Shown in pieces: positions 27,776 through 45,789 of a stretch of DNA of 64,000 nucleotides. Numbering within the stretch: position 1 is the first letter of the stretch; every line of letters begins with the position of its first letter. The position numbers were made by a program, and so were the translations under genes. The stretch comes from an uncultured Acidobacteriota bacterium. Its GTDB lineage: Bacteria; Acidobacteriota; Polarisedimenticolia; Polarisedimenticolales; JAIQFR01. The stretch spans positions 41,155 to 105,154 of the forward strand of contig CALMJU010000082.1 in assembly GCA_937864465.1 (NCBI GenBank), read 5' to 3'. The notes beneath the pieces were generated by a model, which was given only the letters and a program-made list of their open reading frames with translations, searched no databases and was not told where the DNA came from.

Positions 27776-28561
27776 TCAAGGACGCGCCGGCGTGCCGCCT
27801 CCGTCCCCGGCCACCCATCGCAGCCACGGCTCCATCCCTTCTCCGGTGCGGGCGGAGAGGAGGAACAGGTGGGCTCCGGGGTTCAGGCCGCGGATCAGAC
27901 GGAGCGACTCCTCGACGTCGAAATCCACGTGGGGGAGGAGGTCGGTCTTGCACAGGACGACGGAGGTCGCGGTGCGGAAGGCGAGGGGGTACTTCGCCGG
28001 CTTGTCGGTCCCCTCGGTGACGGACAGGAGGACGACGCGCTCGCTCTCGCCGAGGTCGAACTCGGTGGGGCAGATGAGGTTGCCGACGTTCTCGACGAAG
28101 ACGAGAGAGCCTCGCTCGGGGGAGAGGTGCTCGAGAGCGTGGCGGATCTGGTGGGCGTCGAGATGGCAGGCCTTCCCGGTCTGGATCTGGCGGACGGGGG
28201 CGCCCGTCGTCGCGATCCTCCTGGCGTCGAGGTCGGTCTGCTGGTCCCCCTCTACGACGGAGCACTTCCGGCCGCGGGCCAAGAGGGCGGAGAGGGTTCT
28301 CTCGAGAAGGGTGGTCTTCCCGGATCCGGGGGCGCTGATCAGGTTGAAGGAGCGGATCCCCATGCCGGCGAAGAAGCCTCGCACGTAAGCGGCGTGCCGG
28401 TCGTTCTCCGCGAGGAGCGCCTGCTCGACCCGTACGATCCCGTGGAGGGCGTCGTCGTGGGAGTGCTCGCCGGGGCGTTTCCCCTCGCGGCCATGGTCGT
28501 GACCGTGGTCGCCGGCCTCGGGTTCGTCGCCCGGGCGGCCGCAGCCGCAGGTGGTGCACAT
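27776..28561 (-). CDS. hypB: Hydrogenase nickel incorporation GTPase HypB
   Basis: 261 aa with the N-terminal CTTCGC metal site, a His-rich stretch (GDHGHDHG), the P-loop SAPGSGKTTLL and the ENVGNLICP motif. Confidence 0.95.
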   Translation of the reverse strand: MCTTCGCGRPGDEPEAGDHGHDHGREGKRPGEHSHDDALHGIVRVEQALLAENDRHAAYVRGFFAGMGIRSFNLISAPGSGKTTLLERTLSALLARGRKCSVVEGDQQTDLDARRIATTGAPVRQIQTGKACHLDAHQIRHALEHLSPERGSLVFVENVGNLICPTEFDLGESERVVLLSVTEGTDKPAKYPLAFRTATSVVLCKTDLLPHVDFDVEESLRLIRGLNPGAHLFLLSARTGEGMEPWLRWVAGDGGGTPARP

Positions 28562-28562
28562 G

Positions 28563-28904
28563 TCAGGTGACCTCCAGGGAGTCGAGCTCCATCTCCCGGC
28601 CGCCCTCGACGGAGAGCGGCCATCCCCCGCACGCCGGGCAGGGCGCGAGGAGGTCGCGCACCTCGCTCCTTCCCCCGCACCGGGCGCAGCAGCCGCTCGC
28701 CGGGACGATCTCGAGCCGGAGCTCGGCCCCTTCGCAGATCGTGCCCTTGGCCACGACGGGGAAGCAGAACTCCAGGGACTCGGGTTCGACGCCGGCCAGT
28801 GCCCCGAGCCGCAGGTGGAGGCGGGTCACCGAGCAAGCCCCCGCCTTCTCCGCGCTGCGGACGGCCGTCTCGACCAGGCTCGTCGCGATGGAAAGCTCGT
28901 GCAA
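28563..28904 (-). CDS. hypA: Hydrogenase nickel insertion protein HypA
   Basis: 113 aa if started at TTG 28904 (the RBS GGGAGA lies 7 nt upstream), giving (M)HELSIA. The zinc site is CxxC...CxxC (CARCG...CPACG). Confidence 0.9.
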   Translation of the reverse strand: MHELSIATSLVETAVRSAEKAGACSVTRLHLRLGALAGVEPESLEFCFPVVAKGTICEGAELRLEIVPASGCCARCGGRSEVRDLLAPCPACGGWPLSVEGGREMELDSLEVT

Positions 28905-28984
28905 GAGGTTCTCCCGCCGTGGACGGCAGTCTAGCGGAACGGGGGCGGACGGACCAGGACGGCGCGGCCCGACGGCCCCCTCCC

Positions 28985-29491
28985 TCACGACGGGGGCCCG
29001 GCGCCCAGCAGGGCGAGGGCGTCGCGCCGCACCTCGCCGAGGATCTCCGGGTACGCCTCCTCGAGGGCCGGGGACAGGCGCTCCCCGAACGTGGCGTCGT
29101 CCTCCACCTCGACGGCGAAGACGTGGATCTCCTCGTCCGGCGGGAGGGGGTGGCCGAGGCGGCGGCCGAGGGCGAGGGCGGTCGCGAAGTTCACGTCGTG
29201 GACGTTCCGGAGGTTCCGCGTCTCCCGGAGGGAGCCGGCCGTGAACCGGTACCAGTCGCCCGGGCGCCCGCCCCGGGTGCGAACGGAGTCGAAGATGAGG
29301 ACGCGATCGTAGCCGGAGAGCACCTCGATGAGGTTCAGCCCGCCCACCGAGCACTCGGGGACGACCTCGAGTCCCGGGACGCCCTCGAGGTCGCGGGCCA
29401 GGTCGCGGGCGAGACGAACCCCCACGGAGTCGTCCGTGAGGATCGGGTTCCCCATGCCGAGGAGGAGGGTCCGCACGCGGGCGCTCAGCAC
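28985..29491 (-). CDS. [NiFe] hydrogenase maturation endopeptidase (HycI/FrhD/HoxW family)
   Basis: In frame with track ORF 28985..30760. The LLLGMGNPILTDDSVG motif and the conserved DxxH region (VHDVNF) are present. GTG 29491 overlaps the large-subunit stop, and the start is uncertain. Confidence 0.85.
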   Translation of the reverse strand: MLSARVRTLLLGMGNPILTDDSVGVRLARDLARDLEGVPGLEVVPECSVGGLNLIEVLSGYDRVLIFDSVRTRGGRPGDWYRFTAGSLRETRNLRNVHDVNFATALALGRRLGHPLPPDEEIHVFAVEVEDDATFGERLSPALEEAYPEILGEVRRDALALLGAGPPS

Positions 29492-30951
29492 CCCCTCCGG
29501 AACTCCCGGTGGGGCTCGCCCGCCTTGAAGATCCGGACCTCGAGCGGCATCTGGCCGGGGAGGCTGTGCGTCGCGCAGGAGAAGCACGGGTCGAAGGCGC
29601 GGAACGCCATCTCGATCATGTTGAGGATCCCCTGGGTCGGCTCCGCGCCCGGCCGGATCATCGCCTTCGCGACCTTCTTCGTCACCATGTGGATCGCGGC
29701 GTTGTTGTTCGTCGTCCCGACGATCAGGTTCGCGCTCGTGCAGACCCCCTTCTCGTCGCAGGTGTAGTGGTGGGTGAGCGTGCCGCGCATCGCCTCGACG
29801 ATCCCGACGCCCTCGCCGGTGATCCTGTCCGGGACGACGCGGAACGCGTCGCCGGTGATCTCGGGGTCGTCCCGGTACTTCCGCAGCATCTCGGCGTCGA
29901 ACACCATCTCGACGAGGCGGGCCCAGTGCTGGGCGAGCAGCGCGCGGCAGGGCTTCTGCCCCAGTGTCGAGAACATCTCCTCGTACGCCTCCTGCGCCGC
30001 GGGGGTGGCCATCCGGTCGGCCACGTTGAGCCTCGCGAGCGGGGTGGCGCAGTAGATGCTGGAGTCGATCCCCTCGACGAACCCCTTCCAGCCCCTCTTC
30101 TTGAGGTACGGGAACTTCAGGTACGTCCATGGCTCCACGTGCTCGGCGACGTTCTGGGTGTACTCCTCGGGAGCGTACTTGCAGATCTCGTTCCCCTGGA
30201 AGTCCACGACGCGGACCTTCCCGTCGTAGAAGTTCGGCGCGTTGTTCTCGTCCACGAGCCCCATCTGCTGGACGTCCAGCGTGTACGGGCCGTTCAGGAT
30301 CAGGTCGACGTAGGCGGGGTTCCCGAGGACGACGTCCTTGAAGAGCTTCAGGGAGAACTGCGTGAAGTCGTACAGCTCGTCCACCATCGGCCGGATCGCG
30401 TCGAGCTCCTCCTTCTTGATCCCCTTCGACACGCCGCCGGGCAGGCACCACACGAGGTGGGTCGTCCTTCCGCCGACGATCTGCTGGATCTTCTGGGCCT
30501 GGGCCCGCGCCCGCACGACCGCCCCCCCGATCTCGAGACCGACCTTGGCGACGACCCCGAGGACGTTGCGCGTCGCGGGGTCGGAGTCGGGACCGCACAC
30601 GAAGTCGGGGGCGGCGAGGGCGTAGAAGTGCGCGATGTGGCTGTGGATGTAGTGGGCGTGGTAGTAGAGGTCGCGGAGCTTCAGGGCGAGAGGGGCGATC
30701 TGGTGTCCGAAGCAGCCGTCCACCGCCTTGGCGCTCGCCATGTGGTGGCTCGCCGGGCACACGCCGCAGATCCGGGTGACGATCCGGGGCAGCTCCTCGA
30801 TCGGGCGCCCGACGACGAACCGCTCGAACCCGCGGAGCTCGGGGATCTGGAAGTAGCAGTCCTCGACGCCTCCGGCGTCGTCCAGGAAGATCGCGATCTT
30901 GCCGTGCCCCTCGAGCCTCGTGATCGGATCGATGCTGATCTTCTTGGCCAT
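29485..30951 (-). CDS. mvhA: [NiFe] hydrogenase large subunit, group 3c (MvhA-like), copy 1
   Basis: 488 aa from ATG 30951. The N-terminal Ni-binding motif is RICGVCPASH and the C-terminal motif is DPCFSCATH. It is adjacent to MvhG/MvhD/HdrA-like genes. Confidence 0.94.
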   Translation of the reverse strand: MAKKISIDPITRLEGHGKIAIFLDDAGGVEDCYFQIPELRGFERFVVGRPIEELPRIVTRICGVCPASHHMASAKAVDGCFGHQIAPLALKLRDLYYHAHYIHSHIAHFYALAAPDFVCGPDSDPATRNVLGVVAKVGLEIGGAVVRARAQAQKIQQIVGGRTTHLVWCLPGGVSKGIKKEELDAIRPMVDELYDFTQFSLKLFKDVVLGNPAYVDLILNGPYTLDVQQMGLVDENNAPNFYDGKVRVVDFQGNEICKYAPEEYTQNVAEHVEPWTYLKFPYLKKRGWKGFVEGIDSSIYCATPLARLNVADRMATPAAQEAYEEMFSTLGQKPCRALLAQHWARLVEMVFDAEMLRKYRDDPEITGDAFRVVPDRITGEGVGIVEAMRGTLTHHYTCDEKGVCTSANLIVGTTNNNAAIHMVTKKVAKAMIRPGAEPTQGILNMIEMAFRAFDPCFSCATHSLPGQMPLEVRIFKAGEPHREFRRGC

Positions 30952-31913
30952 CAGCGGATGCTCCTCTGCAGAAGGGACGCGGGGAGGCCGAAGCGATAGG
31001 CGTACCCGAGGATGTCCGGAATGTCGCCGAGGATCCTCTCGATCTCGCGCGGGTCCTTGCTGTCCACGATGGACGATACCGCCGAGACGAACTTCGCCCC
31101 CTGGTCGATCACGTTGGGGGCGGGTCCGTAGCAGCCGCGGCAGGGCATGCCGCTGTCGGGGCAGCGGACCCCGCATCCCGAACGGGTGGCGGAGCCCGCG
31201 CACAGGATTCCCTGCTCCATGAGGCACCTGTCCGGGTCCTGGAGGATCTCCCAGGGACGGTGGAACCGCGTGACCTTCTTCTCTTCCTTGCGGCGCCGGC
31301 AGTCGTCGCAGACCGTCCGGTTGGACGCGCCGATGACGCTTCGGGCGGGCGGAAGCGTGCCGTTGACGAGCGCCTGCAACGCCGCCTTGACCTGCTCCGG
31401 GGCCGGCGGGCAGCCGGGCACGTAATAGTCGACGGGGACGACGTCGTCGAGCCTGTAGACCCTGCGGTAGAAGCGCGGGATCTCGAGCTCCCCGGCATCC
31501 ACGCGCGTGGACGGAAGAGGCACCACGCGGTTCCCGGCCTCGATCGAAGGGTTGTCCAGGTAGACCCGCTCGAGGATCTCCTGCTTCGTGACCTGGTTGG
31601 CCAGCCCCGGGATCCCTCCCAGGTGAGCGCAGGAGCCGAGGGCGACGAGGACCTTGCTCTTCCGGCGCAGGAGCTTCGCGAGGTGCTCGTTCTCGCTGTT
31701 GCGGATCGCGCCGTGGAACAGGGTGCAGTCGAGCTCCCCGTCGGCCATCGCCTCCACGTCCCTGTACTTGCCGTCGGCGGCGATCGGCCAGAGCCGGATG
31801 TCGACGAGGAACCCCACGCCGATGACGAACTCGTTCGTGTCCAGGACGGCCACGTCGCAGCCGCCGCAGGCGGCGCCCCAGTAGAGAGCGATCTGAAGCT
31901 TCTTCTCGGGCAT
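30951..31913 (-). CDS. mvhG: [NiFe] hydrogenase small subunit (MvhG-like), copy 1
   Basis: 320 aa with no Tat signal. The proximal-cluster cysteines are GAACGGCDVA and further Cys motifs are GSCAHLGGIPG and PGCPP. Confidence 0.9.
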   Translation of the reverse strand: MPEKKLQIALYWGAACGGCDVAVLDTNEFVIGVGFLVDIRLWPIAADGKYRDVEAMADGELDCTLFHGAIRNSENEHLAKLLRRKSKVLVALGSCAHLGGIPGLANQVTKQEILERVYLDNPSIEAGNRVVPLPSTRVDAGELEIPRFYRRVYRLDDVVPVDYYVPGCPPAPEQVKAALQALVNGTLPPARSVIGASNRTVCDDCRRRKEEKKVTRFHRPWEILQDPDRCLMEQGILCAGSATRSGCGVRCPDSGMPCRGCYGPAPNVIDQGAKFVSAVSSIVDSKDPREIERILGDIPDILGYAYRFGLPASLLQRSIR

Positions 31914-31916
31914 GGC

Positions 31917-32351
31917 CTACCTCTCGACCCGGTCGGCCTCGAGCAGGGTCTTGACCCGGCTCGGCCCCAGGCGGCGAACGCGCTCCGTCATGTCGTCCAC
32001 GATCTCCGCGAACCGCTTCCCCTCGCTGGCGCTGACCCACTCGAGCCGGACCCGGTCCTCCTCGATCCCGTAATCTCGGAGGAGCCGGCCCAGCAGGGGA
32101 AACCGGCGCATCGCCTTGTAGTTCCCCTCGGAGTAGTGGCAGTCGCCCGGGTGGCAGCCGCAGATCAGCACCCCGTCGGCGCCCTCCGCGAGCGCCTTGA
32201 CGACGAAGGTGGGGTCCACGCGGGCCGAGCACATCACGCGGATCACCCGCACGTTCGGCGCGTAGTGGATGCGCGCGGTCCCCGCGAGGTCGGCGCCGGT
32301 GTACGAGCACCAGTTGCAGAGGAACCCGACTATCCTTGGCTCGAAGCCCAT
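31917..32351 (-). CDS. mvhD: MvhD/FlpD-type [2Fe-2S] hydrogenase delta subunit, copy 1
   Basis: ATG 32351 is in frame with track ORF 31917..34109, giving 144 aa. Motifs present are FLCNWCSY, VMCSARV and CGCHPGDCHY. Confidence 0.9.
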   Translation of the reverse strand: MGFEPRIVGFLCNWCSYTGADLAGTARIHYAPNVRVIRVMCSARVDPTFVVKALAEGADGVLICGCHPGDCHYSEGNYKAMRRFPLLGRLLRDYGIEEDRVRLEWVSASEGKRFAEIVDDMTERVRRLGPSRVKTLLEADRVER

Positions 32352-34060
32352 TCCAGCACCCCTTCGATCTGCGAGAAGATCTGTCGGTCGGTGAAATGCC
32401 GCCCCTGGATCGCTCCCGAGGGGCACGCCGCGACGCAGCAGCCGCAGGCCTTGCACACGGCGCTGATGACCCGGCTGCGCTTGGTGGCGGCGTCGTACTC
32501 GATCGCCGCGTAGGGGCAGAGCTCGTTGCACATCCGGCACCCCGAGCAGCGGGTCTCGTCCACCTCCGCGAACACGGCGTCCACCTCGATCTTGCCCCGG
32601 CTGATCTTGCCGAGGATCCTCGCCGCCGCCGCCTCGGCCTGGGCCACCGACCCCGGGATCCCCTTCGGCGCCTGGCAGGTCCCGGCGATGAACACTCCCT
32701 CCGTCGTGGTGGCGACCGGGTCCAGCTTCGGGTGGCTCTCGATGAACCAGCCGTCCTTGTCCTGGCTGATGCTGACGAGGTGGGCGACGTCGGCCGCGTC
32801 CTCCCGCGCCTCCATGCCCACCATGAGGACCACCAGGTCGGCCGGCACCTCGATCTCCTCGCCGGAGAGCACCTCGTGGACCTTGATCAGCATCTCGCAG
32901 TCGTCGTCGGGGCCCGACGGCACGATCTCCGGAGTCGTCCCCTTGGCGTACATCAGGAACATCGTCTTCATCTCGGCGGTGCGCCGGTAGAAGTCCTCGC
33001 ACCCCTTTCCGAAGGCGTGCATGTCGATGTACAGGTCGTAGACGTAGGCCCCCGGCAGGGCGGACTTGATCTCGTGGCCGTACTTCAGCGCGGTCATGCA
33101 GCAGACGCGGGAGCAGTAGCCGTGGTACTCGGGGTTCCGGCTCCCGACGCAGTGGATCATCGCGAAGTACTTCGGCACCCGCCCTCCGCGCGTCAGGATC
33201 CGCCCCTCGCGGAGCATCCGCTCGAGCTCGAACGAGGTGACGACGTTGGGGAGCCTGCCGTACCCGTAATGCTCGATCCTGCGTGCGTCGAACTCCCGGA
33301 AGCCGGTGGCGACGAGAACGCTTCCGACGTCCACGGTCCGCGCGCCGTCCGCCCCGACGCGGATCTCGGCCCGGAAGTTGCCGACGAACCCGGAGAGGGA
33401 CTGCAGGGTCGATCGGAGGAGGACCTCGATTTTCGGGCTCTCGAGGACACGGCGGATCCGGTCGGCGAGCATGTCCCGCGCGGAGTCGAGGTACGGGGCG
33501 GTCAGGTCCACCCGGGCCAGGTTCCCTCCCAGGTGGTCGTCCTTCTCCACGAGGAAGACAGGCTGGCCGGCGTCGGAGAGCTCCAGGGCGGCCGTCAGGC
33601 CCGCGATCCCACCGCCGAGCACGAGCGTGGCCGGGCACATGTCCACGAACCGCTTCTCGAGCGGCTCGTGGTGGACGACGCGCCGGACCGCGGCGTGGGC
33701 CAGGGCGAGGGCCTTGTCGGTCGCCGCGCGGGCGTCGTCGTGGACCCAGCTGCACTGCTCCCGGATGTTCGCCATCTCCAGGAAGTACGGGTTGATCCCG
33801 GCGGTCTGCAGCGCCTTGCGGAACGTCGGCTCGTGCATGCGGGGGCTGCACGCGGCGACGACCACGCGGTCGAGGGAGAGCTCCCGGATGTCCTGGATGA
33901 TCATCTCCTGTCCGGGGTTCGAGCACATGTACTTGTAGGAGCGCGCGACCGCCACGCCCGGCAGCTTCTTCGCGAAATCGGAAACCGCGTCGCAGTCGAC
34001 CACCTTGGCGATGTTCGTGCCGCAGTTGCAGACGTAGACGCCGATCCTCCGGTCTTCCAT
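32330..34060 (-). CDS. hdrA: HdrA-like flavoprotein (QmoB-like core): N-terminal Cys cluster + FAD domain + C-terminal 2x[4Fe-4S], lacks inserted ferredoxin domain
   Basis: 576 aa from ATG 34060 (RBS GGGAGG 5 nt upstream; alternative ATG 34072). Motifs present are GVYVCNCGTNIA, GGGIAGLTAALEL and CSRVCCM. The C-terminus has CSGCRMCNELCP...CKACGCCVAACP. Confidence 0.92.
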   Translation of the reverse strand: MEDRRIGVYVCNCGTNIAKVVDCDAVSDFAKKLPGVAVARSYKYMCSNPGQEMIIQDIRELSLDRVVVAACSPRMHEPTFRKALQTAGINPYFLEMANIREQCSWVHDDARAATDKALALAHAAVRRVVHHEPLEKRFVDMCPATLVLGGGIAGLTAALELSDAGQPVFLVEKDDHLGGNLARVDLTAPYLDSARDMLADRIRRVLESPKIEVLLRSTLQSLSGFVGNFRAEIRVGADGARTVDVGSVLVATGFREFDARRIEHYGYGRLPNVVTSFELERMLREGRILTRGGRVPKYFAMIHCVGSRNPEYHGYCSRVCCMTALKYGHEIKSALPGAYVYDLYIDMHAFGKGCEDFYRRTAEMKTMFLMYAKGTTPEIVPSGPDDDCEMLIKVHEVLSGEEIEVPADLVVLMVGMEAREDAADVAHLVSISQDKDGWFIESHPKLDPVATTTEGVFIAGTCQAPKGIPGSVAQAEAAAARILGKISRGKIEVDAVFAEVDETRCSGCRMCNELCPYAAIEYDAATKRSRVISAVCKACGCCVAACPSGAIQGRHFTDRQIFSQIEGVLEWASSQG

Positions 34061-34071
34061 CGTGCCTCCCA

Positions 34072-35223
34072 TCAGGCCGGCAGCGGGGCGCCCGCGGCGG
34101 CGACCGCACGCTCCCTCTCCCGGATCGCCTCGGCCTGGAGCTCCGAGAAGTACATGGCCAGGGGCCGATAGGCCAGGTGCGCCCACTTGCTGAAGGGGAC
34201 CTCGAGCCCGAGCATCGGCACCACGCCCATCATGTGGACGACGTAGACGACGTTCGCGGCCACGTCCAGGTGGAAGACGCGGTAGAGGACGTTCTGGAGG
34301 ATGCCGGTGCCGGCCACGAACACGAGCAGGATCAGGAAGATCCAGTCGGTCTCGTGGGAGTGCTTGTAATGGGTCTCCTCCTTGCGGATGCGGCCGCGCA
34401 GCGCGTAGATCGAGGTGCCCAGGAGCCCGATCGTCGCGAGGTACCCGAACCCGTGCGCCGCCCACACGGTCCGCTCGCTGTGCATGGCGTGCAGGAAGAA
34501 CATGATGAGGACGAGCATCGTCGTGTAGCTGAGCATGAGGGCGAGGTGGATCGCCCAGGGGCGCTTCTTCCCGCACTCCGCATACCGCTTTTGCGTGAAG
34601 AAGTGGACCGGCAGGAGGAACGCCTGCCGGAGATACGCCAGGGGTGGGATCCGGAGCGTGCGGTCCTTTCCGATGCTGAACCACCACATCCGCGCGCAGT
34701 TGATGCCCAGGAACGCCGCGAGGACGCAGCCCAGGATCCAGTCGAAGACGTGCACCGCCCCGGTCGTCAGAAACGCTCCCTCCCCGGCGTAGACCCCGAG
34801 GTGGCCCCCGCCCCAGCGGAATCCGAACAGCAGGAACCCCGCTCCCGTCAGCAGCGCGACGAGAAGGATGGCCGCGAGCTCGGCCTTCCACGATCGGTAG
34901 AAGAGCTTCGAGATCCCCGTGAAGTCGTAGCGCGACGTGAGCCACCGGCGCATGCTCATCATGGTCTCGCCCGGCTCCGCCTCCCTGGGGCACTCCTCCG
35001 AGCACTCCCCGCAGTAGTAGCAGAGCCAGGGCTCGAGATTCCCGAGCAGCTTCTCCTCGAGCCCCATCTGCAGGTAGCGCATCGACTTCCTCGGGAAGAG
35101 GAACGGCTCCCGCGAGAAGGGGCAGACGGCGCTGCAGTTGCCGCAGTGGTAGCACTTCGCGACGTCCTCCGCGCCGTAGTGCTCCAGCTCCTCGACCAGC
35201 CTGGGATTGGCCCGGATCGCCAT
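34072..35223 (-). CDS. QmoC-like fusion: HdrC-type 2x[4Fe-4S] domain + HdrE/NarI-like polytopic membrane domain
   Basis: 383 aa from ATG 35223. The N-terminus has CYHCGNCSAVCP and CYYCGECSEECP. About six hydrophobic helices with multiple conserved-looking His follow (HVFDW, AIHLAL, HAMH, VVHMMG, WAHLAY). Confidence 0.8.
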   Translation of the reverse strand: MAIRANPRLVEELEHYGAEDVAKCYHCGNCSAVCPFSREPFLFPRKSMRYLQMGLEEKLLGNLEPWLCYYCGECSEECPREAEPGETMMSMRRWLTSRYDFTGISKLFYRSWKAELAAILLVALLTGAGFLLFGFRWGGGHLGVYAGEGAFLTTGAVHVFDWILGCVLAAFLGINCARMWWFSIGKDRTLRIPPLAYLRQAFLLPVHFFTQKRYAECGKKRPWAIHLALMLSYTTMLVLIMFFLHAMHSERTVWAAHGFGYLATIGLLGTSIYALRGRIRKEETHYKHSHETDWIFLILLVFVAGTGILQNVLYRVFHLDVAANVVYVVHMMGVVPMLGLEVPFSKWAHLAYRPLAMYFSELQAEAIRERERAVAAAGAPLPA

Positions 35224-35237
35224 GCCGACTCCCTCCG

Positions 35238-37058
35238 TCACGCCCCCGCGAGGGCCCGTGCGCGAGATTCGATCTCCTCGACCGTCAGGCTCGCGCGCGA
35301 TCCCTGGCCGCGGCCGCTGACCACACTCTTGAGCACGCGGGCGGCGACGGCCGAGGCCTGCGCCACCGCGTCCGGGATGTCCTTCGGTCCCTGGCACACC
35401 CCCGCGACGTGGATCCCGCCGCGCTCGGTGCCCGTCGGGTCGATGTTGTAGTCCGTCTCGCGGAACCATCCGTCCTCGTCCCGGTCGATCCCGAGGATCC
35501 CGGCGAGCCGGTCGGAGGCGCACGCGGGCTCGAGGCCGACCGACAGGAGGACCATGTCCACGGGGAACTCCACGAGACGGTCCTTGAGGATGTCCTCGCC
35601 CTTGATCGTCATGCGGCCGTCCTTCTCGACGACCTTCGCCGAGCGGCCGCGAACGACGAAGACCTCCTCGAGGCGGATCCGCTCGAAGAACTCCTCGTAC
35701 CCCTTTCCGAACGCGCGCATGTCGATGTAGAACTCGTAGCAGACGGCGTCGGGGAGCTTCTCCTTGACCAGGTGGGCGAACTTCAAGGAGTACATGCAGC
35801 AGACCCTGCTGCAGTACGGGTTGTACTTCTTGTCCCGCGAGCCGACGCAGTGGACGATCGCGACGCTTCCGGGCCGGGGGCCCTCGGCGTCGAAGACCCA
35901 CTCGTCCTGCTTCGTGCGCTTGTTGCGCCGGAGCGTCTTCATGACGATCGCGCCGCCCGTCGGTCCGGACGCGTTCGTCAGCCGCTCGAACTCGAGGGCG
36001 GTGAGGACGTTGGGATGGACGCCGTAGCCGTAACGCTCGATCCTCCGGGCGTCGAAGACGTCGTAGCCCGTGGCCACGACGATGCTGCCCACCTCGATCT
36101 CGACCACCTCGTCGCGGTCGTCGAAATGGATCAGCTCCTTCGCGCACTTGCGGAGGCAGGCCCCGCACTTCTTGCCGCCGCTCAGGATGTACGTGCAGGC
36201 GGCGGCGTCGACCAGGTACGCGTTGGGCACCGCCTGGGGGAACGGCATGTAGATCGCCTTGCGCGTCGTGATCCCGCCGTCGAACTCGCTCGGGACCGCG
36301 ACGGGGCAGACCTCCATGCAGGCGTGGCACGCCACGCACGCGTCCGGGTCCACGAAGCGCGCCTTCTTCAGGACCTTCACGCGGTAGGCCCCCGGCTCCC
36401 CGGCGACGTCCTGCACCTCCGCGTAGGTCATCAGGTCGATCTTCTCGTGCTGCCCCACGGCCACCATCTTCGGCGTGAGGATGCAGGCCGCGCAGTCGAG
36501 CGTGGGGAACGTCTTGTCGAACATCGCCATGTGGCCGCCGATGGTGCCGGTCTTCTCGACGAGGTACACCTTCTGGCCCGCGTCGGCGATCTCGAGGGCC
36601 GCCTGGATGCCGGCCACCCCTCCGCCGATGACGAGCGTGGCCGGGTTCACCGCCGTGGGCCGGGGCGATGCCGCGAGGCCGAAGGGGACCCCGTGCACCG
36701 CGCAGGCGACGACGGCCTTCGCCCTCTCGGTGCCGTCGTCGGCGCCGGCCCCGTGCTGGCGGAACGAGGCGAGACGCACCTCCGTCGGCTCGCCGCCTGC
36801 GAGGGCGACGGCCCGGGTGAACGCCGGCTTGAAGTGACCGGGGGAATCGCCGGCCACGACGACGACCTTGAGGTCCCTCTTCTTGATCTCGTGAGCCAGG
36901 ACCTCCGGGTCCGGCGCGGGCCGCGGGGAGCGGACCTCGACGTGCGCGACACCGGGGAGCCCGCGCGCGTACTCCGCGACGGCGTCCCAGTCCACGGGCA
37001 TGGGAAGGGCCGCCTCCTTCTGGCAGAAGTAGACTCCGATCTTCTTCGGGACGCCCAT
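35238..37058 (-). CDS. HdrA-like flavoprotein (QmoA-like): degenerate N-terminal domain + FAD domain + inserted ferredoxin domain, no C-terminal ferredoxin
   Basis: 606 aa from ATG 37058. Motifs present are GGGVAGIQAALEI, FPTLDCAACILTPK, CSRVCCM and the inserted CVACHACMEVCP...CGACLRKC. The N-terminus reads IGVYFCQKE instead of the CxCGxN cluster motif. It ends after the FAD domain. Confidence 0.88.
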   Translation of the reverse strand: MGVPKKIGVYFCQKEAALPMPVDWDAVAEYARGLPGVAHVEVRSPRPAPDPEVLAHEIKKRDLKVVVVAGDSPGHFKPAFTRAVALAGGEPTEVRLASFRQHGAGADDGTERAKAVVACAVHGVPFGLAASPRPTAVNPATLVIGGGVAGIQAALEIADAGQKVYLVEKTGTIGGHMAMFDKTFPTLDCAACILTPKMVAVGQHEKIDLMTYAEVQDVAGEPGAYRVKVLKKARFVDPDACVACHACMEVCPVAVPSEFDGGITTRKAIYMPFPQAVPNAYLVDAAACTYILSGGKKCGACLRKCAKELIHFDDRDEVVEIEVGSIVVATGYDVFDARRIERYGYGVHPNVLTALEFERLTNASGPTGGAIVMKTLRRNKRTKQDEWVFDAEGPRPGSVAIVHCVGSRDKKYNPYCSRVCCMYSLKFAHLVKEKLPDAVCYEFYIDMRAFGKGYEEFFERIRLEEVFVVRGRSAKVVEKDGRMTIKGEDILKDRLVEFPVDMVLLSVGLEPACASDRLAGILGIDRDEDGWFRETDYNIDPTGTERGGIHVAGVCQGPKDIPDAVAQASAVAARVLKSVVSGRGQGSRASLTVEEIESRARALAGA

Positions 37059-37430: not shown

Positions 37431-37477
37431 ACCGGGCGGCATCGGTTTCGCCGCATCCGGCGTCACCCGAGGTGAAG

Positions 37478-37909
37478 ATGGAAGCCCCCAAGAAGCTCCT
37501 CATGATCGACGACGACAAGATCTTGCTCGATGTCTTCCGGGTCGTGTGCGAGGCGAAGGGGTACGAGTTCCACGGAGCGTGCTCCGCGGCCGAGGGGATG
37601 ACGAAGATCCTGGAGGTCGGACCGGACGCAATCATCCTGGACGTGATGATGGAGGACTTCGTCGCCGGGTACCGGGTGCTGAGCGAGCTCAGGACGCCCG
37701 GCCCCGGGTCCGAGTTCGCGCGGTTCTCCCGGGTCCCGATCATTCTCCTGACCGGCGTCGCGTCGAGGACGAACGCGTCGCTCCGCGACCGGGTCGGCAC
37801 GGCCCTCCTCCCCGTGGACGCGTACGTCGAGAAGCCGGTCGAGCCGGCGGAGATGCTGGCGGTGATCGACCGGGTCCTGGCCGCGAGGGGGCCGGACGCC
37901 GGGGCGTAG
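37478..37909 (+). CDS. Stand-alone response regulator receiver (CheY-like)
   Basis: 143 aa from ATG 37478. It has the acidic pocket MIDDD, the phospho-acceptor context AIILDVMM, and T/K positions (LLTGV, EKP). There is no output domain. Confidence 0.85.
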   Translation: MEAPKKLLMIDDDKILLDVFRVVCEAKGYEFHGACSAAEGMTKILEVGPDAIILDVMMEDFVAGYRVLSELRTPGPGSEFARFSRVPIILLTGVASRTNASLRDRVGTALLPVDAYVEKPVEPAEMLAVIDRVLAARGPDAGA

Positions 37910-37923
37910 GGCGGCAGGGAGCG

Positions 37924-38409
37924 TCAGCGTCCCGCGGAGGCCGCGAGCCAGTCGTCGAGGATCCCGGCGGCGGCCTCGACGAACCGGGGCATCGCCGAGG
38001 CGACCGCGGGGGAGAGCGCCTCGCGAATCGTGAAGGGGTCCTCGACCTCGATCGACAGCACGCGCAGTTCCCCCGGCATCTCGGATCCGAGGCGGCGGCC
38101 GAGCGCGAGCACCTCGGGGAGCCCGGCGTAGTGCGGGGACGGAGCCAGGACGCCGCGGAAGGATTCCGGAGCCATCTCACGTACCGTTCCGGGGGGGAAC
38201 GCCCCGGAGCGGATCGAATCGAGGATCAGGACGCGACGGCGTCCCTCGATCAGCTCGAGAAGCGCTAGCCCGGCCTCGCCCGACTCGACGATCGCCACGC
38301 GGTCCCGGTACCGGGAGGCGAGAGTCCGGGCGGCGAGGGGCCCGGCCGCGTCGTCGCCCAGCAGGTCGTTGCCGAGGGCGAGCACCAGATCCGCCGGGCC
38401 TCGCGTCAC
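37924..38409 (-). CDS. [NiFe] hydrogenase maturation endopeptidase, copy 2
   Basis: GTG 38409 forms a GTGA overlap with the large-subunit stop, giving 161 aa. The motif LALGNDLLGDDAAG and the conserved SPH region are present. Confidence 0.85.
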   Translation of the reverse strand: MTRGPADLVLALGNDLLGDDAAGPLAARTLASRYRDRVAIVESGEAGLALLELIEGRRRVLILDSIRSGAFPPGTVREMAPESFRGVLAPSPHYAGLPEVLALGRRLGSEMPGELRVLSIEVEDPFTIREALSPAVASAMPRFVEAAAGILDDWLAASAGR

Positions 38410-39869
38410 CGGCGGATCTCGTCGATCACGCGGCCGGCCCGGTCCAGGATCCGGAGGACGAGCGGCACCTGGCCCGGCAGCGAGTGCGTGGCGCAGCCGT
38501 GGCAGGGGTCGTAGGCGCGGAACGCCATCTCGACGCGGTTCAGGAGGCCCTCCCGCACCTCCCCGCCGCGGATCATCTCCTTGGCCGCCTTCTCGACCCC
38601 CATGGCCATCCGCGCGGAGTTGCCCTGGGTGGCGACGATCAGGTTCGCGCGGACGATCCGTCCGTCCCCGTCGGTCTCGTAGTGGTGAAAGAGCGTCCCT
38701 CGCGGCGCCTCGACGGCACCCACGCCGACCCGGGGCACGGCGGTCGGGAGATTCCGAAGATCCGCTCCCGCGATCTCCGGGTCCGCGAGCAGGTCCCGGA
38801 TCCTCTCCGCCGCTTGCACCATCTCGACGACGCGCGCCCAGTGGTTGGCGAGCGTGTAGTGGACCGGCTTCGGGCCGAGGGCCGCGTAGAGCTCGTCGTG
38901 AGCCGCCTGCGCCTCCTCGGTCGCCATCCCTTCGGAAGCGTTGAGGCGGGCCATCGGGGCGACGGAGTACACGCCGCTGTCCCGGCCGTCCACGAACCCC
39001 TTCCAGCCGACCGGCTTCAGGTAGCAGAACTTGACGTAGCTCCACGGCTCCACGTGCTCGGCGACGAAATCGAGGTAGCGGTGAGCGGGGAACTTCGCGT
39101 ACTCGCTTCCCTCGGGGTCGACCACCCGCAGATCGCCGTCGTAGAAGTCCACGCGGTTCCTCGCGTCGACCATTCCCATCGAGTAGGTGCGGTGCGTGTA
39201 TGCCTCGGCGGTGATCATCCTGAGGTAGGCGTCGTTTCCGAGAACGAGATCGCGGAAGACCCGGAGCGTGAAGCGGGCGAAGTCCACGGCTTCGTCGGCG
39301 AGCGCGCGGAATGCGGGGAGATCCTCGGGAGAGACCCCCTTCGCCACGCCGCCGGGGAGCCCGAGCACGGGGTGGATCGCCTTGCCGCCGATCCGGCCGA
39401 TCAGCTCCCGGAGCCGCCGCCGCATCGAGATCACGCGGCGCCCCGCGTCGGCGCCGACCTTGGCGATGACGCCGGAGACGTTGCGGAGCGAGGGGGGCGC
39501 GTCCGGCCCGACGATGAAGTCGGGACCGCCGAGGACGTAGACGTGCAGCGCATGGTCCTCGAGCATGAAGGCGTTGTATACGAGCTCGCGGACCTTTCGC
39601 GCCGTCGGCGTGGGCTCCACCGAGTACAGGGCGTCGAGCGCCTTGGTCGCGGCCATGTGGTGCGCCGTCGGGCAGACCCCGCAGATGCGGCTCGTGATCT
39701 GCGGCATGTCCTCCGCCGGGCGGCCGACGCTGAACACCTCGAACCCGCGCAGCTCGGGAACCTGGAAAAAGGCGCGCTCGACGTCCCCTCGCTCGTCCAG
39801 GAAGATGTCGATCTTTCCGTGTCCCTCGAGCCTCGTGATCGGGTCCACCGTGATTCTTCGCGTGTCCAT
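38406..39869 (-). CDS. mvhA: [NiFe] hydrogenase large subunit, group 3c (MvhA-like), copy 2
   Basis: 487 aa with the motifs RICGVCPTAH and DPCHGCATH. It is collinear with copy 1 along its full length by eye. Confidence 0.94.
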   Translation of the reverse strand: MDTRRITVDPITRLEGHGKIDIFLDERGDVERAFFQVPELRGFEVFSVGRPAEDMPQITSRICGVCPTAHHMAATKALDALYSVEPTPTARKVRELVYNAFMLEDHALHVYVLGGPDFIVGPDAPPSLRNVSGVIAKVGADAGRRVISMRRRLRELIGRIGGKAIHPVLGLPGGVAKGVSPEDLPAFRALADEAVDFARFTLRVFRDLVLGNDAYLRMITAEAYTHRTYSMGMVDARNRVDFYDGDLRVVDPEGSEYAKFPAHRYLDFVAEHVEPWSYVKFCYLKPVGWKGFVDGRDSGVYSVAPMARLNASEGMATEEAQAAHDELYAALGPKPVHYTLANHWARVVEMVQAAERIRDLLADPEIAGADLRNLPTAVPRVGVGAVEAPRGTLFHHYETDGDGRIVRANLIVATQGNSARMAMGVEKAAKEMIRGGEVREGLLNRVEMAFRAYDPCHGCATHSLPGQVPLVLRILDRAGRVIDEIRR

Positions 39870-39909
39870 CCGAACCTCGATCGCCGCCGCGGGGCGGCCG
39901 GAGGGCGCG

Positions 39910-40902: not shown

Positions 40903-41347
40903 GGGCGGAGACCTCCTCGTCCCACTCGGCGGCGCGGCCGGGCAGGTCCAGGGGACCGAGCCTGCGGACCTCCTCGACCATCTCGTTGACGACTCGCCGC
41001 ACCTTCTCCCCCTCGGCTGCGGAGATCCACTCGAGGCGGCAGCGCGCCTCCTCGATCCCCATCTCCCGGAGCACCCGGCGGATCATCCGGAATCGCCGGA
41101 GGGCCTTGTAATTCCCCTCGATGTAGTGGCAGTCGCCGGGGTGGCATCCGCCGATGAGCACGCCGTCGGCGCCGCGGGCGAACGCGTCGTAGACGAACTG
41201 CGGGTCCATCCGGCCCGAGCACATGACGCGCACGACGCGGGTGTTGGGCGCGTACTTCATCCGGGACACGCCCGCGAGGTCGGCGGCCGTGTAGGTGCAC
41301 CAGTTGCAGAAGAACGCCACGATCCGCGGTTCCCAGGGTTCAGGCAT
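40895..41347 (-). CDS. mvhD: MvhD/FlpD-type delta subunit, copy 2
   Basis: 150 aa with FFCNWCTY, VMCSGRM and GGCHPGDCHY. Confidence 0.9.
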   Translation of the reverse strand: MPEPWEPRIVAFFCNWCTYTAADLAGVSRMKYAPNTRVVRVMCSGRMDPQFVYDAFARGADGVLIGGCHPGDCHYIEGNYKALRRFRMIRRVLREMGIEEARCRLEWISAAEGEKVRRVVNEMVEEVRRLGPLDLPGRAAEWDEEVSAHA

Positions 41348-43331: not shown

Positions 43332-43353
43332 GAAGCTCCTCTCCTCCTTCGCC

Positions 43354-45787: not shown

Positions 45788-45789
45788 CG

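What the first reader, a model, noticed from the sequence alone, without database searches (positions are those of the whole stretch)
27776..37058. Operon fusing a Qmo-like membrane module (QmoA-like / QmoC-like / HdrA+MvhD) to a group-3c [NiFe] hydrogenase
Nine minus-strand genes are packed with gaps or overlaps of 0-22 nt. In order they are an HdrA-like protein (606 aa), a 383-aa HdrC-type 2x[4Fe-4S] domain fused to a six-helix His-rich membrane domain, a second HdrA-like protein (576 aa), MvhD, MvhG, MvhA, an endopeptidase, HypA and HypB. Two HdrA paralogs, an MvhD module and an HdrC-HdrE-type fusion make up the defining subunit set of the quinone-interacting QmoABC complex of sulfate reducers. 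In that complex QmoB equals HdrA plus MvhD, and QmoC equals an HdrC-like domain plus a cytochrome-b-like domain. Here the set lacks HdrB and any CCG-domain catalytic subunit, and it is transcriptionally welded to an Mvh-type hydrogenase rather than to aprAB/sat. That predicts a membrane-anchored complex linking H2 oxidation or production, a flavin-based bifurcating HdrA core, and the quinone pool. I do not know this wiring as a characterised system. It is the strongest candidate for something new in this window.
Basis: partly seen in the sequence, partly recalled or inferred. Interest (0 to 1): 0.8.

Follow-up and report, generated by a model that had tools for sequence, protein, structure and literature searches.

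The report
Membrane-anchored hydrogenase with split HdrA core
This is a real nine-gene operon that joins a cytoplasmic nickel-iron hydrogenase to two complementary HdrA flavoproteins and a QmoC-type membrane cytochrome, probably splitting electrons from hydrogen between membrane quinone and ferredoxin; it is widespread in uncultured bacteria, has been noted before in two archaea, and has never been tested biochemically.

Summary
Nine tightly packed minus-strand genes (27776-37058) encode HdrA-like, QmoC-type, HdrA-like, MvhD, MvhG, MvhA, protease, HypA and HypB.

- **Conservation.** The first seven genes recur as one cassette in 61 of 69 informative loci from about ten bacterial phyla, all MAGs.
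- **HdrA pair.** The two flavoproteins are HdrA-type, not QmoA/QmoB orthologues. They carry complementary cofactor sites, the published signature of an obligate HdrA heterodimer.
- **Membrane subunit.** It falls in one tight clade with an aprBA/sat-linked QmoC. Its model resembles HdrC plus the haem-b/menaquinone protein EtfD.
- **Modularity.** Other loci replace Mvh with a selenocysteine formate dehydrogenase or a Flx-like NAD(P)H module.

The best reading is H2 oxidation bifurcated to menaquinone and ferredoxin, possibly reversible.

The wiring is also not unknown. The same gene set and hypothesis were published for Ca. Methanoglobus in 2023-24, without biochemistry. I rate it a new, bacterial member of a recognised but uncharacterised kind, of moderate interest.

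The parts
35238..37058 (-). g1: HdrA-like flavoprotein, the 'Cys197-donor / ferredoxin-output' half of the predicted heterodimer. It has an FAD site, a TrxR-domain [4Fe-4S] (C404, C416, C420, C421), an inserted 2x[4Fe-4S] ferredoxin domain (C241-C251, C288-C305) and a DCxxC motif (C189, C192). It has no N-terminal cluster cysteines and no C-terminal ferredoxin domain.
   Evidence: 473 bits to 5odc_A over residues 6-581. Cysteine conservation is 97-100% in 68 orthologues. ELER and CCMxxxK motifs are present.
34072..35223 (-). g2: QmoC-type subunit. An N-terminal HdrC-like 2x[4Fe-4S] domain (C24-C34, C68-C78) is fused to a six-helix membrane domain with His residues conserved in 98-100% of orthologues. 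It is the predicted haem-b and quinone site.
   Evidence: NCBIfam qmoC 176.9 bits over the full length. AF2 model pLDDT 84, pTM 0.83. Foldseek hits: HdrC prob 1.0, EtfD 9ojn prob 0.93, NarI prob 0.60. His/Cys conservation. Clade shared with the apr/sat-linked QmoC of L072.
32330..34060 (-). g3: HdrA-like flavoprotein, the 'input / N-terminal-cluster' half. It has N-terminal cluster cysteines (C11, C13, C46, C71, C103), an FAD site, a TrxR-domain cluster (C304, C316, C320, C321) and a C-terminal 2x[4Fe-4S] ferredoxin domain (C505-C546). It lacks the Cys197 motif and the inserted ferredoxin domain.
   Evidence: 499 bits to 5odc_A in two blocks that skip HdrA residues ~236-318. The cited cysteines are 100% conserved in 66 orthologues.
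31917..32351 (-). MvhD, the [2Fe-2S] adaptor between hydrogenase and HdrA. Its start overlaps the end of g3 by 22 nt.
   Evidence: PF02662 at 185.5 bits. Cysteines conserved 94-100%.
30951..31913 (-). MvhG, the [NiFe] hydrogenase small subunit. It has no signal or Tat motif, so it is cytoplasmic.
   Evidence: VhuG 215 bits. Sequence shown.
29485..30951 (-). MvhA, a Mvh/Vhu-type (group 3c-like) [NiFe] hydrogenase large subunit.
   Evidence: VhuA 370.5 bits. RICGVC and DPCFSCATH motifs plus a 26-aa cleavable tail. Orthologues in other phyla are mostly 77-86% identical (a few acidobacterial loci 65-67%); the paralogue in the neighbouring operon is 52% identical.
28985..29491 (-). Hydrogenase maturation endopeptidase.
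   Evidence: TIGR00072, 90.9 bits, above the cutoff.
28563..28904 (-). HypA nickel metallochaperone. The revised start is TTG 28904 (MHELSI...).
27776..28561 (-). HypB nickel-insertion GTPase.
   Evidence: TIGR00073, 248.5 bits, above the cutoff.
37472..37909 (+). Stand-alone response-regulator receiver, divergently transcribed from the operon. It is a possible regulator.
   Evidence: A response regulator lies next to the cassette in 7 of 80 related loci.
37924..44819 (-). Context: a paralogous canonical operon encoding HdrC, HdrB (2xCCG), HdrA (663 aa), MvhD, MvhG, MvhA and a protease.
   Evidence: The same tandem arrangement occurs in L008; HdrB lies within 10 kb in 11 of 80 loci.

Best explanation
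The operon encodes one membrane-anchored, cytoplasm-facing complex: MvhAG-MvhD, an HdrA heterodimer (g3+g1), and QmoC.

**Proposed path (inferred).**
1. H2 is oxidised at MvhA.
2. Electrons pass through MvhG and the MvhD [2Fe-2S] cluster into the C-terminal ferredoxin domain of g3.
3. They reach a bifurcating FAD.
4. The high-potential electron leaves through a TrxR-domain [4Fe-4S]. It then crosses the two HdrC-type clusters and the haem(s) b of QmoC to menaquinone.
5. The low-potential electron leaves through the N-terminal cluster of g3, whose ligand set is completed by Cys192 of g1. It then passes through the inserted ferredoxin domain of g1 to soluble ferredoxin.

The net reaction is 2 H2 + MK + 2 Fd(ox) -> MKH2 + 2 Fd(red) + 2 H+, with quinone replacing the heterodisulfide of methanogen Mvh-HdrABC. 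The reaction may run in reverse.

**Shown here:** gene content, cofactor-ligand motifs and their conservation, cassette conservation, and module swapping.

**Inferred:** physical complex formation, haem and quinone binding, bifurcation, and direction.
For: 1. **Gene content and coupling.** The nine genes are translationally coupled.
2. **Cassette conservation.** The cassette g1-g2-g3-MvhD-MvhG-MvhA(-protease) is conserved in 61 of 69 informative loci. These span Acidobacteriota, Actinomycetota, Myxococcota/'delta', Eisenbacteria, Krumholzibacteriota, Latescibacterota, Sumerlaeota, Planctomycetota, Spirochaetota and Bdellovibrionota.
[quoted passage not shown] The cited ligand cysteines are 97-100% conserved in 66-68 orthologues. 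This is the published signature of obligate HdrA heterodimers (Chadwick 2022).
4. **FAD and output sites.** Both proteins keep the TrxR-domain cluster cysteines and the ELER and CCMxxxK motifs around FAD.
5. **QmoC type.** g2 matches the qmoC profile over its full length. It is 61-63% identical to, and in the same clade as, the QmoC of an aprBA-qmoAB-sat cluster.
6. **Haem/quinone precedent.** The confident g2 model resembles HdrC, EtfD and NarI. EtfD is a solved wire from Fe-S clusters to haem b to menaquinone. H226, H330, H349 and C217 are conserved across the wider superfamily.
7. **Module swapping.** The g1-QmoC-g3-MvhD core also occurs with a selenocysteine formate dehydrogenase (L031, L043; TGA in the context HCARL*HS) or a Flx-like NAD(P)H module (L057, L066, L069) in place of Mvh. 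This mirrors the known inputs of HdrABC.
8. **Self-sufficiency.** Only 11 of 80 loci have any HdrB within 10 kb.
9. **Independent proposal.** The literature reached the same hypothesis for the archaeal cluster, which is highly expressed.
Against: - There is no biochemical, transcript or structural evidence for the complex here or, as far as I found, anywhere.
- Haem and quinone binding are inferred from fold and conserved His only. I could not measure His-His geometry in the model.
- Foldseek E-values for the membrane domain are weak (best 0.065; EtfD 1.3), although probabilities are high.
- Both HdrA-like subunits retain FAD and a TrxR-domain cluster. It is unclear which flavin bifurcates and which cluster contacts QmoC.
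- g2 scores below the NCBIfam QmoC cutoff (176.9 against 300).
- An HdrCB pair is encoded next door in this genome and could in principle also dock.
- If the quinone site lies on the outer face, H2-to-quinone electron flow would consume membrane potential.
- All 80 related loci retrieved are MAGs, so no physiology is available.
Confidence: 0.55

Rival explanations
1. Same complex, opposite physiological direction. Reduced ferredoxin and menaquinol are confurcated to evolve H2. This would dispose of quinol-level electrons (for example from succinate or acyl-CoA oxidation) during fermentation or syntrophy. Electron flow inward through QmoC would conserve energy.
For: Group 3 hydrogenases are regarded as bidirectional (papers). 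Ramos 2012 proposed confurcation for Qmo with a hydrogenase as possible partner. The carriers come from anoxic peat, wet soil and sediment. The architecture is symmetric with respect to direction.
Against: Quinol plus ferredoxin to H2 is only feasible at very low H2. Dedicated HypA/HypB and a response regulator say nothing about direction. The archaeal papers favour H2 uptake. Sequence data cannot settle this.
Confidence: 0.2
2. A non-bifurcating, cytoplasm-facing H2:quinone oxidoreductase. The HdrA-like pair would be only an electron wire or adaptor between MvhD and QmoC.
For: The driving force from H2 to menaquinone is large and needs no coupling. Many HdrA homologues have unproven bifurcation.
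Against: The whole ferredoxin-output branch is 100% conserved in 66-68 orthologues across phyla: the g3 N-terminal cluster, g1 Cys192 and the g1 inserted 2x[4Fe-4S] domain. Two FAD sites with HdrA-type motifs are also conserved. Keeping about 1,180 residues of flavoprotein as a plain wire is unparsimonious.
Confidence: 0.12
3. As in sulfate reducers, QmoC serves as a quinol entry point. H2 and quinol electrons would be combined to reduce a third, soluble acceptor not encoded in the operon, such as an APS-reductase-like enzyme, DsrC or another protein disulfide, or the HdrBC of the neighbouring operon.
For: The same QmoC clade serves an aprBA/sat-linked QmoAB in L072. A DsrE2-like gene follows QmoC in L077. 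HdrCB is encoded 0.9-7.8 kb upstream in this window.
Against: No apr, sat or dsr gene was found among the window genes scanned. Only 11 of 80 loci have HdrB nearby. The cassette carries its own HdrC-type domain within QmoC. No conserved extra partner gene accompanies the cassette.
Confidence: 0.08

Closest known systems
'Mvh-Qmo-Hdr' gene cluster of Ca. Methanoglobus nevadensis and Ca. M. hypatiae (Buessecker et al., ISME J 2023; Lynes et al. 2024)
   Same: The stated composition is the same: [NiFe] hydrogenase MvhAGD, two HdrA homologues and an HdrC-QmoC cytochrome b fusion, with no AprAB. The hypothesis is also the same: H2 electrons bifurcated to menaquinone and ferredoxin.
   Different: That cluster is archaeal and thermophilic, known from genome and transcriptome only. 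Here the host is a ~70% GC bacterium whose closest relatives are Terriglobia MAGs. The operon also carries the protease, hypA and hypB, and lies next to a canonical HdrCBA-Mvh operon. I could not test sequence-level orthology or gene order against the archaeal cluster. The broad bacterial distribution and the Fdh and Flx variants are not mentioned in the passages I read.
QmoABC of sulfate reducers (Pires 2003; Ramos 2012)
   Same: The QmoC-type subunit is shared: an HdrC-like 2x[4Fe-4S] domain plus a haem-b membrane domain. g2 is in the same clade as an apr/sat-linked QmoC. Both have two HdrA-related flavoproteins and an MvhD module, and both interact with quinone.
   Different: g1 and g3 are HdrA-type, with 28-31% identity to the QmoA/QmoB of L072. 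MvhD is a separate protein rather than fused. The partner is a hydrogenase, not AprAB. g2 scores below the NCBIfam QmoC cutoff. No apr or sat gene lies in the window.
MvhAGD-HdrABC of hydrogenotrophic methanogens (PDB 5ODC; Wagner 2017)
   Same: The MvhA, MvhG and MvhD subunits are shared. So is HdrA chemistry: FAD, TrxR-domain cluster, N-terminal cluster with a trans Cys197 ligand, and inserted and C-terminal ferredoxin domains. Output goes to ferredoxin.
   Different: The HdrA homodimer is replaced by two complementary paralogues, giving a single electron track. HdrB, with its CCG non-cubane clusters and disulfide site, is absent. HdrC is fused to a membrane cytochrome. The predicted high-potential acceptor is quinone, and the complex is membrane-bound.
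Tandem or fused HdrA heterodimers of ANME archaea and Moorella MetFV-HdrABC-MvhD (Chadwick 2022)
   Same: The same complementarity holds between Cys197 and the N-terminal cluster, and between the ferredoxin domains of the two HdrA copies.
   Different: The partner modules differ. Here g1 retains a degenerate N-terminal domain without cysteines rather than losing the domain.
Mycobacterial EtfD (PDB 9OJN)
   Same: It is the best solved structural match covering the membrane domain of g2. It forms a wire from HdrC-like Fe-S clusters to haem b to menaquinone.
   Different: The domain order differs. EtfD also has an HdrB-like CCG domain and takes electrons from ETF. The match is at fold level only (15% identity).

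Membership tests
QmoABC complex | QmoC: an HdrC-like 2x[4Fe-4S] domain fused to a multi-helix cytochrome-b-type membrane domain | tested here: met
   Two CxxCxxCxxxC motifs are 100% conserved. Six transmembrane helices are predicted (AF2 pLDDT 84). The match to the qmoC profile covers the full length. g2 falls in the same NJ clade as, and is 61-63% identical to, the QmoC of an aprBA-qmoAB-sat cluster.
QmoABC complex | Score at or above the curated NCBIfam QmoC equivalog cutoff (300 bits) | tested here: not met
   176.9 bits. The apr/sat-linked QmoC of L072 also fails at 181.6 bits, and only the P0236 clade passes at 350.8 bits. The cutoff therefore defines a narrower subgroup.
QmoABC complex | QmoA (short, FAD-only HdrA relative) and QmoB (HdrA relative fused to MvhD) as the two flavoproteins | tested here: not met
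   g1 and g3 are 606 and 576 aa with HdrA-type Fe-S domains. They are 45-55% identical to true HdrA and 28-31% identical to L072 QmoA/QmoB. MvhD is a separate gene.
QmoABC complex | Genetic linkage to aprBA and sat, with AprAB as functional partner | tested here: not met
   No apr, sat or dsr domain was found among the window genes scanned. The rest of the genome could not be tested.
QmoABC complex | Two haems b and menaquinol reactivity | not testable with these tools
   The support is indirect. H226, H330 and H349 are conserved across the superfamily, and H158, H207, H257 and H290 within the close family. The fold resembles EtfD and NarI.
MvhAGD-HdrABC (group 3c [NiFe] hydrogenase with heterodisulfide reductase) | Mvh/Vhu-type large, small and delta subunits with intact metal ligands | tested here: met
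   Best NCBIfam matches are VhuA (370.5 bits), VhuG (215.1 bits) and VhuD (132.9 bits), all below the narrow archaeal cutoffs. The NiFe motifs are intact and the MvhD cysteines are conserved. HydDB classification was not available.
MvhAGD-HdrABC (group 3c [NiFe] hydrogenase with heterodisulfide reductase) | HdrB with two CCG domains as the disulfide-reducing catalytic subunit | tested here: not met
   It is absent from the nine-gene operon. It is present only in the separate upstream operon at 43354-44232. It lies within 10 kb in only 11 of 80 related loci.
MvhAGD-HdrABC (group 3c [NiFe] hydrogenase with heterodisulfide reductase) | A homodimeric HdrA carrying all four domains in one polypeptide | tested here: not met
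   The domains and ligands are split between g1 and g3.
Tandem HdrA heterodimer (Chadwick et al. 2022) | [quoted passage not shown] | tested here: met
   g3 has C11, C13, C46, C71 and C103 and lacks the DCxxC motif. g1 has C189 and C192 and lacks the N-terminal cysteines. These ligand cysteines are conserved in 100% of 66-68 orthologues.
Mvh-Qmo-Hdr cluster of Ca. Methanoglobus | MvhAGD plus two HdrA homologues plus an HdrC-QmoC cytochrome b fusion in one cluster, without AprAB | tested here: met
   The composition matches the published description.
Mvh-Qmo-Hdr cluster of Ca. Methanoglobus | Sequence orthology and the same gene order as the archaeal cluster | not tested
   No archaeal sequence was available. 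All 80 loci retrieved are bacterial MAGs.

The most novel reading that the evidence does not exclude
The g1-QmoC-g3-MvhD unit may be a general, membrane-integral, quinone-coupled flavin-based bifurcation platform. It would accept interchangeable donor modules: Mvh hydrogenase, selenocysteine formate dehydrogenase, or Flx-like NAD(P)H dehydrogenase. The Mvh form would be a widespread route by which soil and sediment Acidobacteriota, Actinomycetota and others make low-potential ferredoxin from scarce H2, using the respiratory quinone pool as the high-potential sink. That would be a first quinone-dependent bifurcating hydrogenase. It would also be a tractable model for the long-unresolved mechanism of Qmo-type complexes.
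Probability: 0.4. Interest if true: 0.75.

Novelty: new member of a known kind. Interest (0 to 1): 0.55.

Why it matters
**A test bed for an old question.** Whether Qmo-type complexes bifurcate or confurcate electrons, and what docks on the HdrA/MvhD-like part, has been open since QmoABC was described. Here the docking partner is written into the operon. H2, quinone and ferredoxin are all assayable. This family is therefore a cleaner test system than QmoABC-AprAB.

**Annotation and ecology.** Metagenome papers routinely label these genes as 'group 3c MvhADG, HdrABC-linked'. For this widespread cassette that label is probably wrong. The predicted acceptor is the quinone pool, which changes inferred H2 metabolism and energy budgets for many uncultured soil, peat and sediment bacteria.

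**Evolution.** The Fdh and Flx variants and the shared QmoC clade suggest a modular family parallel to HdrABC.

Tried and rejected
- **Model geometry.** Model coordinates are not exposed, so His-His and haem geometry could not be measured.
- **Source of the window.** An exact-sequence look-up of g2 found no record, so the sample remains unknown.
- **Taxonomy of distant clades.** The listing of cluster members on ten QmoC-superfamily representatives gave almost no taxonomy.
- **Promoters and terminators.** The consensus scan was uninformative in this 70% GC DNA, with counts at or below shuffle expectation.
- **First gene filter.** My initial strict GC3 filter missed most genes. A log-odds frame score replaced it.
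- **First synteny pass.** It under-counted genes because stop-to-stop ORFs overlap in high-GC DNA. I redid it on HSP coordinates.
- **Literature dead ends.** One search failed on a two-character term. 'QmoC-like' returned nothing. The Sporomusa 'third way' paper, Chadwick 2022, the SRB-partner paper, the HdrA diversity paper and the Desulfobacterium genome paper do not describe this cluster.
- **Rejected: g1 = QmoA and g3+g4 = QmoB.** Identities and domain content are HdrA-type.
- **Rejected: failing the NCBIfam QmoC cutoff excludes QmoC function.** An apr/sat-linked QmoC fails it too.
- **Rejected: the complex depends on the neighbouring HdrBC.** HdrB is near the cassette in only 11 of 80 loci.

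Full report
**1. Observation**

The window is about 70% GC, so raw ORF lists are full of spurious frames. A codon-position log-odds score gave a clean gene map.

Nine minus-strand genes fill 27776-37058. Pfam and NCBIfam confirm each assignment:
- g1, HdrA-like, 606 aa.
- g2, 383 aa, with an HdrC-type 2x[4Fe-4S] domain. It matches the NCBIfam qmoC profile over positions 5-360 of 360 at 176.9 bits.
- g3, HdrA-like, 576 aa.
- MvhD (PF02662, 185 bits).
- MvhG (VhuG, 215 bits).
- MvhA (VhuA, 370 bits).
- A maturation protease.
- HypA and HypB.

MvhA has intact RICGVC and DPCFSCATH motifs and a 26-residue cleavable tail. MvhG has no export signal.

Gene junctions are +14, +11, -22, +3, -1, -7 and +1 nt. 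The exception is HypA, whose profile match and MHELSI N-terminus place its start at TTG 28904, 80 nt after the protease.

**2. Context the finding left out**

A canonical operon lies directly upstream on the same strand. It encodes HdrC (44229-44819), HdrB with two CCG domains (43354-44232), HdrA (41340-43331), MvhD, MvhG, MvhA and a protease (37924-38385). A plus-strand receiver-domain gene (37472-37909) separates the two operons.

The paralogues are old. MvhA is 52% identical between the operons, MvhG 46% and MvhD 66%. Orthologues of the Qmo-linked MvhA in other phyla are mostly 77-86% identical, with a few acidobacterial loci at 65-67%.

The rest of the window is housekeeping: pilus and secretion genes, purine and pterin synthesis, TyrRS, MutS2, and Ccm. 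No apr, sat or dsr domain appeared among the genes scanned.

**3. The cassette is conserved and widespread**

- g2 has more than 2,800 relatives at E<=1e-5. The top 120 are 65-92% identical and about 380 aa long.
- A scan of one genome per species found 371 matching stretches. The best 80 loci are all MAGs. They come from Acidobacteriota (several classes), Actinomycetota (Thermoleophilia, Gaiellales), Myxococcota/'delta', Eisenbacteria, Krumholzibacteriota, Latescibacterota, Sumerlaeota, Pirellulales, Leptospirales and Bdellovibrionales.
- The closest loci are Terriglobia MAGs. L008 has both operons in the same tandem order. L022 has the response regulator plus all nine genes.
- Of 69 loci with enough flank, 61 carry g1-g2-g3-MvhD-MvhG-MvhA in order, usually followed by the protease.
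- HdrB lies within 10 kb in only 11 of 80 loci, so the cassette does not depend on HdrBC.

**4. The two HdrA-like proteins form a complementary pair**

Both score far better against crystallised HdrA (5odc_A: 473 and 499 bits) than against a genuine QmoA/QmoB pair. They are 45-55% identical to the neighbouring HdrA. They are 28-31% identical to the QmoA/QmoB of L072.

| Feature | g3 | g1 |
|---|---|---|
| N-terminal cluster cysteines | present (C11, C13, C46, C71, C103) | lost |
| DCxxC motif containing the Cys197 equivalent | absent | present (C189, C192) |
| Inserted 2x[4Fe-4S] ferredoxin domain | absent | present |
| C-terminal 2x[4Fe-4S] ferredoxin domain | present | absent |
| TrxR-domain cluster cysteines | present | present |
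| ELER and CCMxxxK motifs | present | present |

The ELER and CCMxxxK motifs align with E356 and K409 of HdrA. My knowledge, not a tool result, is that these residues flank the FAD.

Every ligand cysteine in the table is conserved in 100% of 66-68 orthologues.

Chadwick et al. 2022 describe this complementarity as the mark of obligate HdrA heterodimers. They also summarise the HdrA electron paths:
- MvhD passes electrons to the C-terminal ferredoxin domain and then to FAD.
- FAD passes electrons to the TrxR-domain cluster and then to HdrC.
- FAD also passes electrons to the N-terminal cluster (completed by Cys197 in trans), then to the inserted ferredoxin domain, then to ferredoxin.

The g1/g3 pair therefore encodes one complete input path and one complete ferredoxin-output path.

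**5. The membrane subunit**

- AlphaFold2 on 120 homologues gave a confident model: pLDDT 84, pTM 0.83, with the membrane part mostly above 90. It shows six long helices and a C-terminal amphipathic helix.
- Foldseek against PDB returned HdrC (prob 1.0), M. smegmatis EtfD 9ojn (prob 0.93, 252 aligned columns) and NarI (prob 0.60). The E-values are weak.
- EtfD is a solved wire from Fe-S clusters to haem b to menaquinone.
- By sequence, PDB holds only HdrC-domain relatives.
- Within the close family, H158, H207, H226, H257, H290, H330, H349 and C217 are 98-100% conserved.
- Across 62 members of the wider superfamily, only H226, H330, H349 and C217 stay at or above 95%. H158 is at 58%.
- From the helix topology I infer a cytoplasm-side pair (H226/H349) and an outer-side pair (H158/H330). 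I could not measure this geometry.

**6. Is it QmoC?**

- The wider family has 162 clusters (at 50% identity) with E<=1e-30.
- In a neighbour-joining tree, the window protein groups tightly with four others. These are the Fdh-linked L031, the Flx-linked L069, L077, and the QmoC of L072.
- L072 sits in an aprB-aprA-...-qmoA-qmoB-sat-...-qmoC cluster.
- The L072 QmoC also scores below the NCBIfam cutoff (181.6 bits). Only a distinct clade, represented by P0236, passes (350.8 bits).
- g2 is therefore QmoC-type in the functional sense, but outside the narrow curated equivalog.

**7. Module swapping**

- **L031 and L043 (Thermoanaerobaculia).** g1-g2-g3-MvhD is followed by an Fe-S protein and a molybdopterin oxidoreductase. 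That enzyme is interrupted by an in-frame TGA in the context HCARL*HS, which fits a selenocysteine formate dehydrogenase.
- **L057, L066 and L069 (Terriglobia).** A Fer4_22 protein and an NAD/FAD-binding protein with a DHODB-type Fe-S domain (Flx- or HydBG-like) precede g1-g2-g3, with MvhD upstream. No hydrogenase is present.
- **L077.** MvhD, a 909-aa HdrA/GltD-like fusion, a second HdrA-like protein, QmoC and a DsrE2-like protein.

Hydrogenase, formate dehydrogenase and Flx are the same donor modules known for HdrABC. This argues that g1-QmoC-g3-MvhD is a functional core.

**8. Mechanism**

Best-supported reading: H2 is oxidised by MvhAG. [quoted passage not shown]
- One branch runs through a TrxR-domain cluster and the QmoC Fe-S clusters and haem(s) to menaquinone.
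- The other runs through the g3 N-terminal cluster (with g1 Cys192) and the g1 inserted ferredoxin domain to ferredoxin.

Standard potentials make this feasible, from established values rather than tool results:
- H2: -414 mV.
- Menaquinone: about -74 mV.
- Ferredoxin: -420 to -500 mV.

The reaction is exergonic, more so than with heterodisulfide, and could work at low H2.

What is shown: genes, ligand motifs, conservation and module logic. What is inferred: complex formation, haem and quinone binding, bifurcation and direction.

Rivals are reverse operation (confurcating H2 evolution), a plain H2:quinone oxidoreductase, and delivery to an unencoded third acceptor.

**9. Comparison with the literature**

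Several metagenome papers simply annotate 'group 3c MvhADG, HdrABC-linked'.

Ramos et al. 2012 argued that QmoB's similarity to HdrA and MvhD implies a third partner. They listed a hydrogenase or formate dehydrogenase first.

The exact gene set has been reported.
- Buessecker, Chadwick et al. describe 'a fascinating gene cluster' in Ca. Methanoglobus nevadensis: MvhABG, two HdrA homologues and a QmoC-HdrC fusion. AprAB is absent. They speculate on electron flow between H2, ferredoxin and menaquinone.
- Lynes et al. find the cluster highly expressed (995-2,431 RPKM) in Ca. M. hypatiae. They call it an Mvh-Qmo-Hdr complex and hypothesise bifurcation to MQ and Fd.

I found no biochemical or structural characterisation. 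In the passages I read, I found no mention of the broad bacterial distribution or the Fdh and Flx variants.

**10. Verdict**

The feature is real, conserved and functionally coherent. Three of its points need correction: the QmoA/QmoB labelling, the neighbouring operon it omitted, and the claim that the wiring is unknown.

I rate it a new (bacterial) member of a recognised but uncharacterised kind. Interest is moderate at 0.55. It is not surprising to a specialist. It is a good handle on the unresolved Qmo mechanism, and it corrects a common annotation of bacterial 'group 3c' hydrogenases.

Noticed in passing
window 37924-44819 (minus strand): A complete canonical HdrC-HdrB-HdrA-MvhD-MvhG-MvhA-protease operon lies directly upstream of the finding. 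It gives two paralogous Mvh hydrogenases in tandem (MvhA 52% identical). The same tandem arrangement occurs in the Terriglobia MAG locus L008.
   Followed up: partly
window 37472-37909 (plus strand): A stand-alone response-regulator receiver gene sits between the two hydrogenase operons, divergent from the Qmo-type operon. A response regulator also lies next to the cassette in L022, L031, L033, L043, L051, L054 and L070.
   Followed up: partly
L031 13320-16182; L043 13371-16158: In two Thermoanaerobaculia MAGs the g1-QmoC-g3-MvhD core is followed by an Fe-S protein and a molybdopterin oxidoreductase instead of MvhGA. That enzyme has an in-frame TGA in the context HCARL*HS, so it is a probable selenocysteine formate dehydrogenase.
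   Followed up: partly
L069 6181-12879; L066 209-8051; L057 7267-12877: Three Terriglobia loci have g1-QmoC-g3 preceded by a Fer4_22 protein and an NAD/FAD-binding protein with a DHODB-type Fe-S domain (Flx- or HydBG-like). MvhD lies upstream and there is no hydrogenase. This is a putative NAD(P)H-fed variant.
   Followed up: partly
L072 1040-11089: A 'delta proteobacterium' MAG has aprB, aprA, a QmoA-like protein (357 aa), a QmoB-like protein (709 aa, HdrA+MvhD fused), sat, a 147-aa ORF and then a QmoC. That QmoC is 61-63% identical to the window protein and in the same tight clade. The same QmoC lineage therefore serves both APS-reductase-linked and hydrogenase-linked complexes.
   Followed up: partly
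L077 4758-11614: An Actinomycetes MAG has MvhD, a 909-aa HdrA fused to a GltD-like NAD(P)H/Fe-S module, a 608-aa HdrA-like protein, an 82-aa ORF, a QmoC-type protein (63% identical) and a DsrE2-like protein. It appears to be another member of the QmoC-anchored HdrA family.
   Followed up: no
window 36142-36196 (g1 residues 288-305): The second cluster motif of g1's inserted ferredoxin domain has unusual spacing (C288-x9-C298-x2-C301-x3-C305). It carries a 7-residue insertion relative to HdrA of 5ODC. The spacing is conserved in all 68 orthologues.
   Followed up: no
window 27776-28904: Only hypA and hypB accompany the hydrogenase. No hypC, hypD, hypE or hypF domain was seen among the window genes scanned. 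HypA uses a TTG start, so the longer GTG ORF is probably not translated.
   Followed up: partly
window 45066-46374 (plus strand): A compact pterin-synthesis trio lies directly upstream of the Hdr operon: FolB dihydroneopterin aldolase, 6-pyruvoyl-tetrahydropterin synthase and GTP cyclohydrolase I. A 754-aa SpoIID/SPOR protein follows it.
   Followed up: no
L024 and L034 (same Actinomycetota MAG, JAPLCM01): Two separate contigs of one MAG each carry a copy of the QmoC-type gene with g3 and MvhD. This suggests duplicate cassettes or strain heterogeneity in the bin.
   Followed up: no
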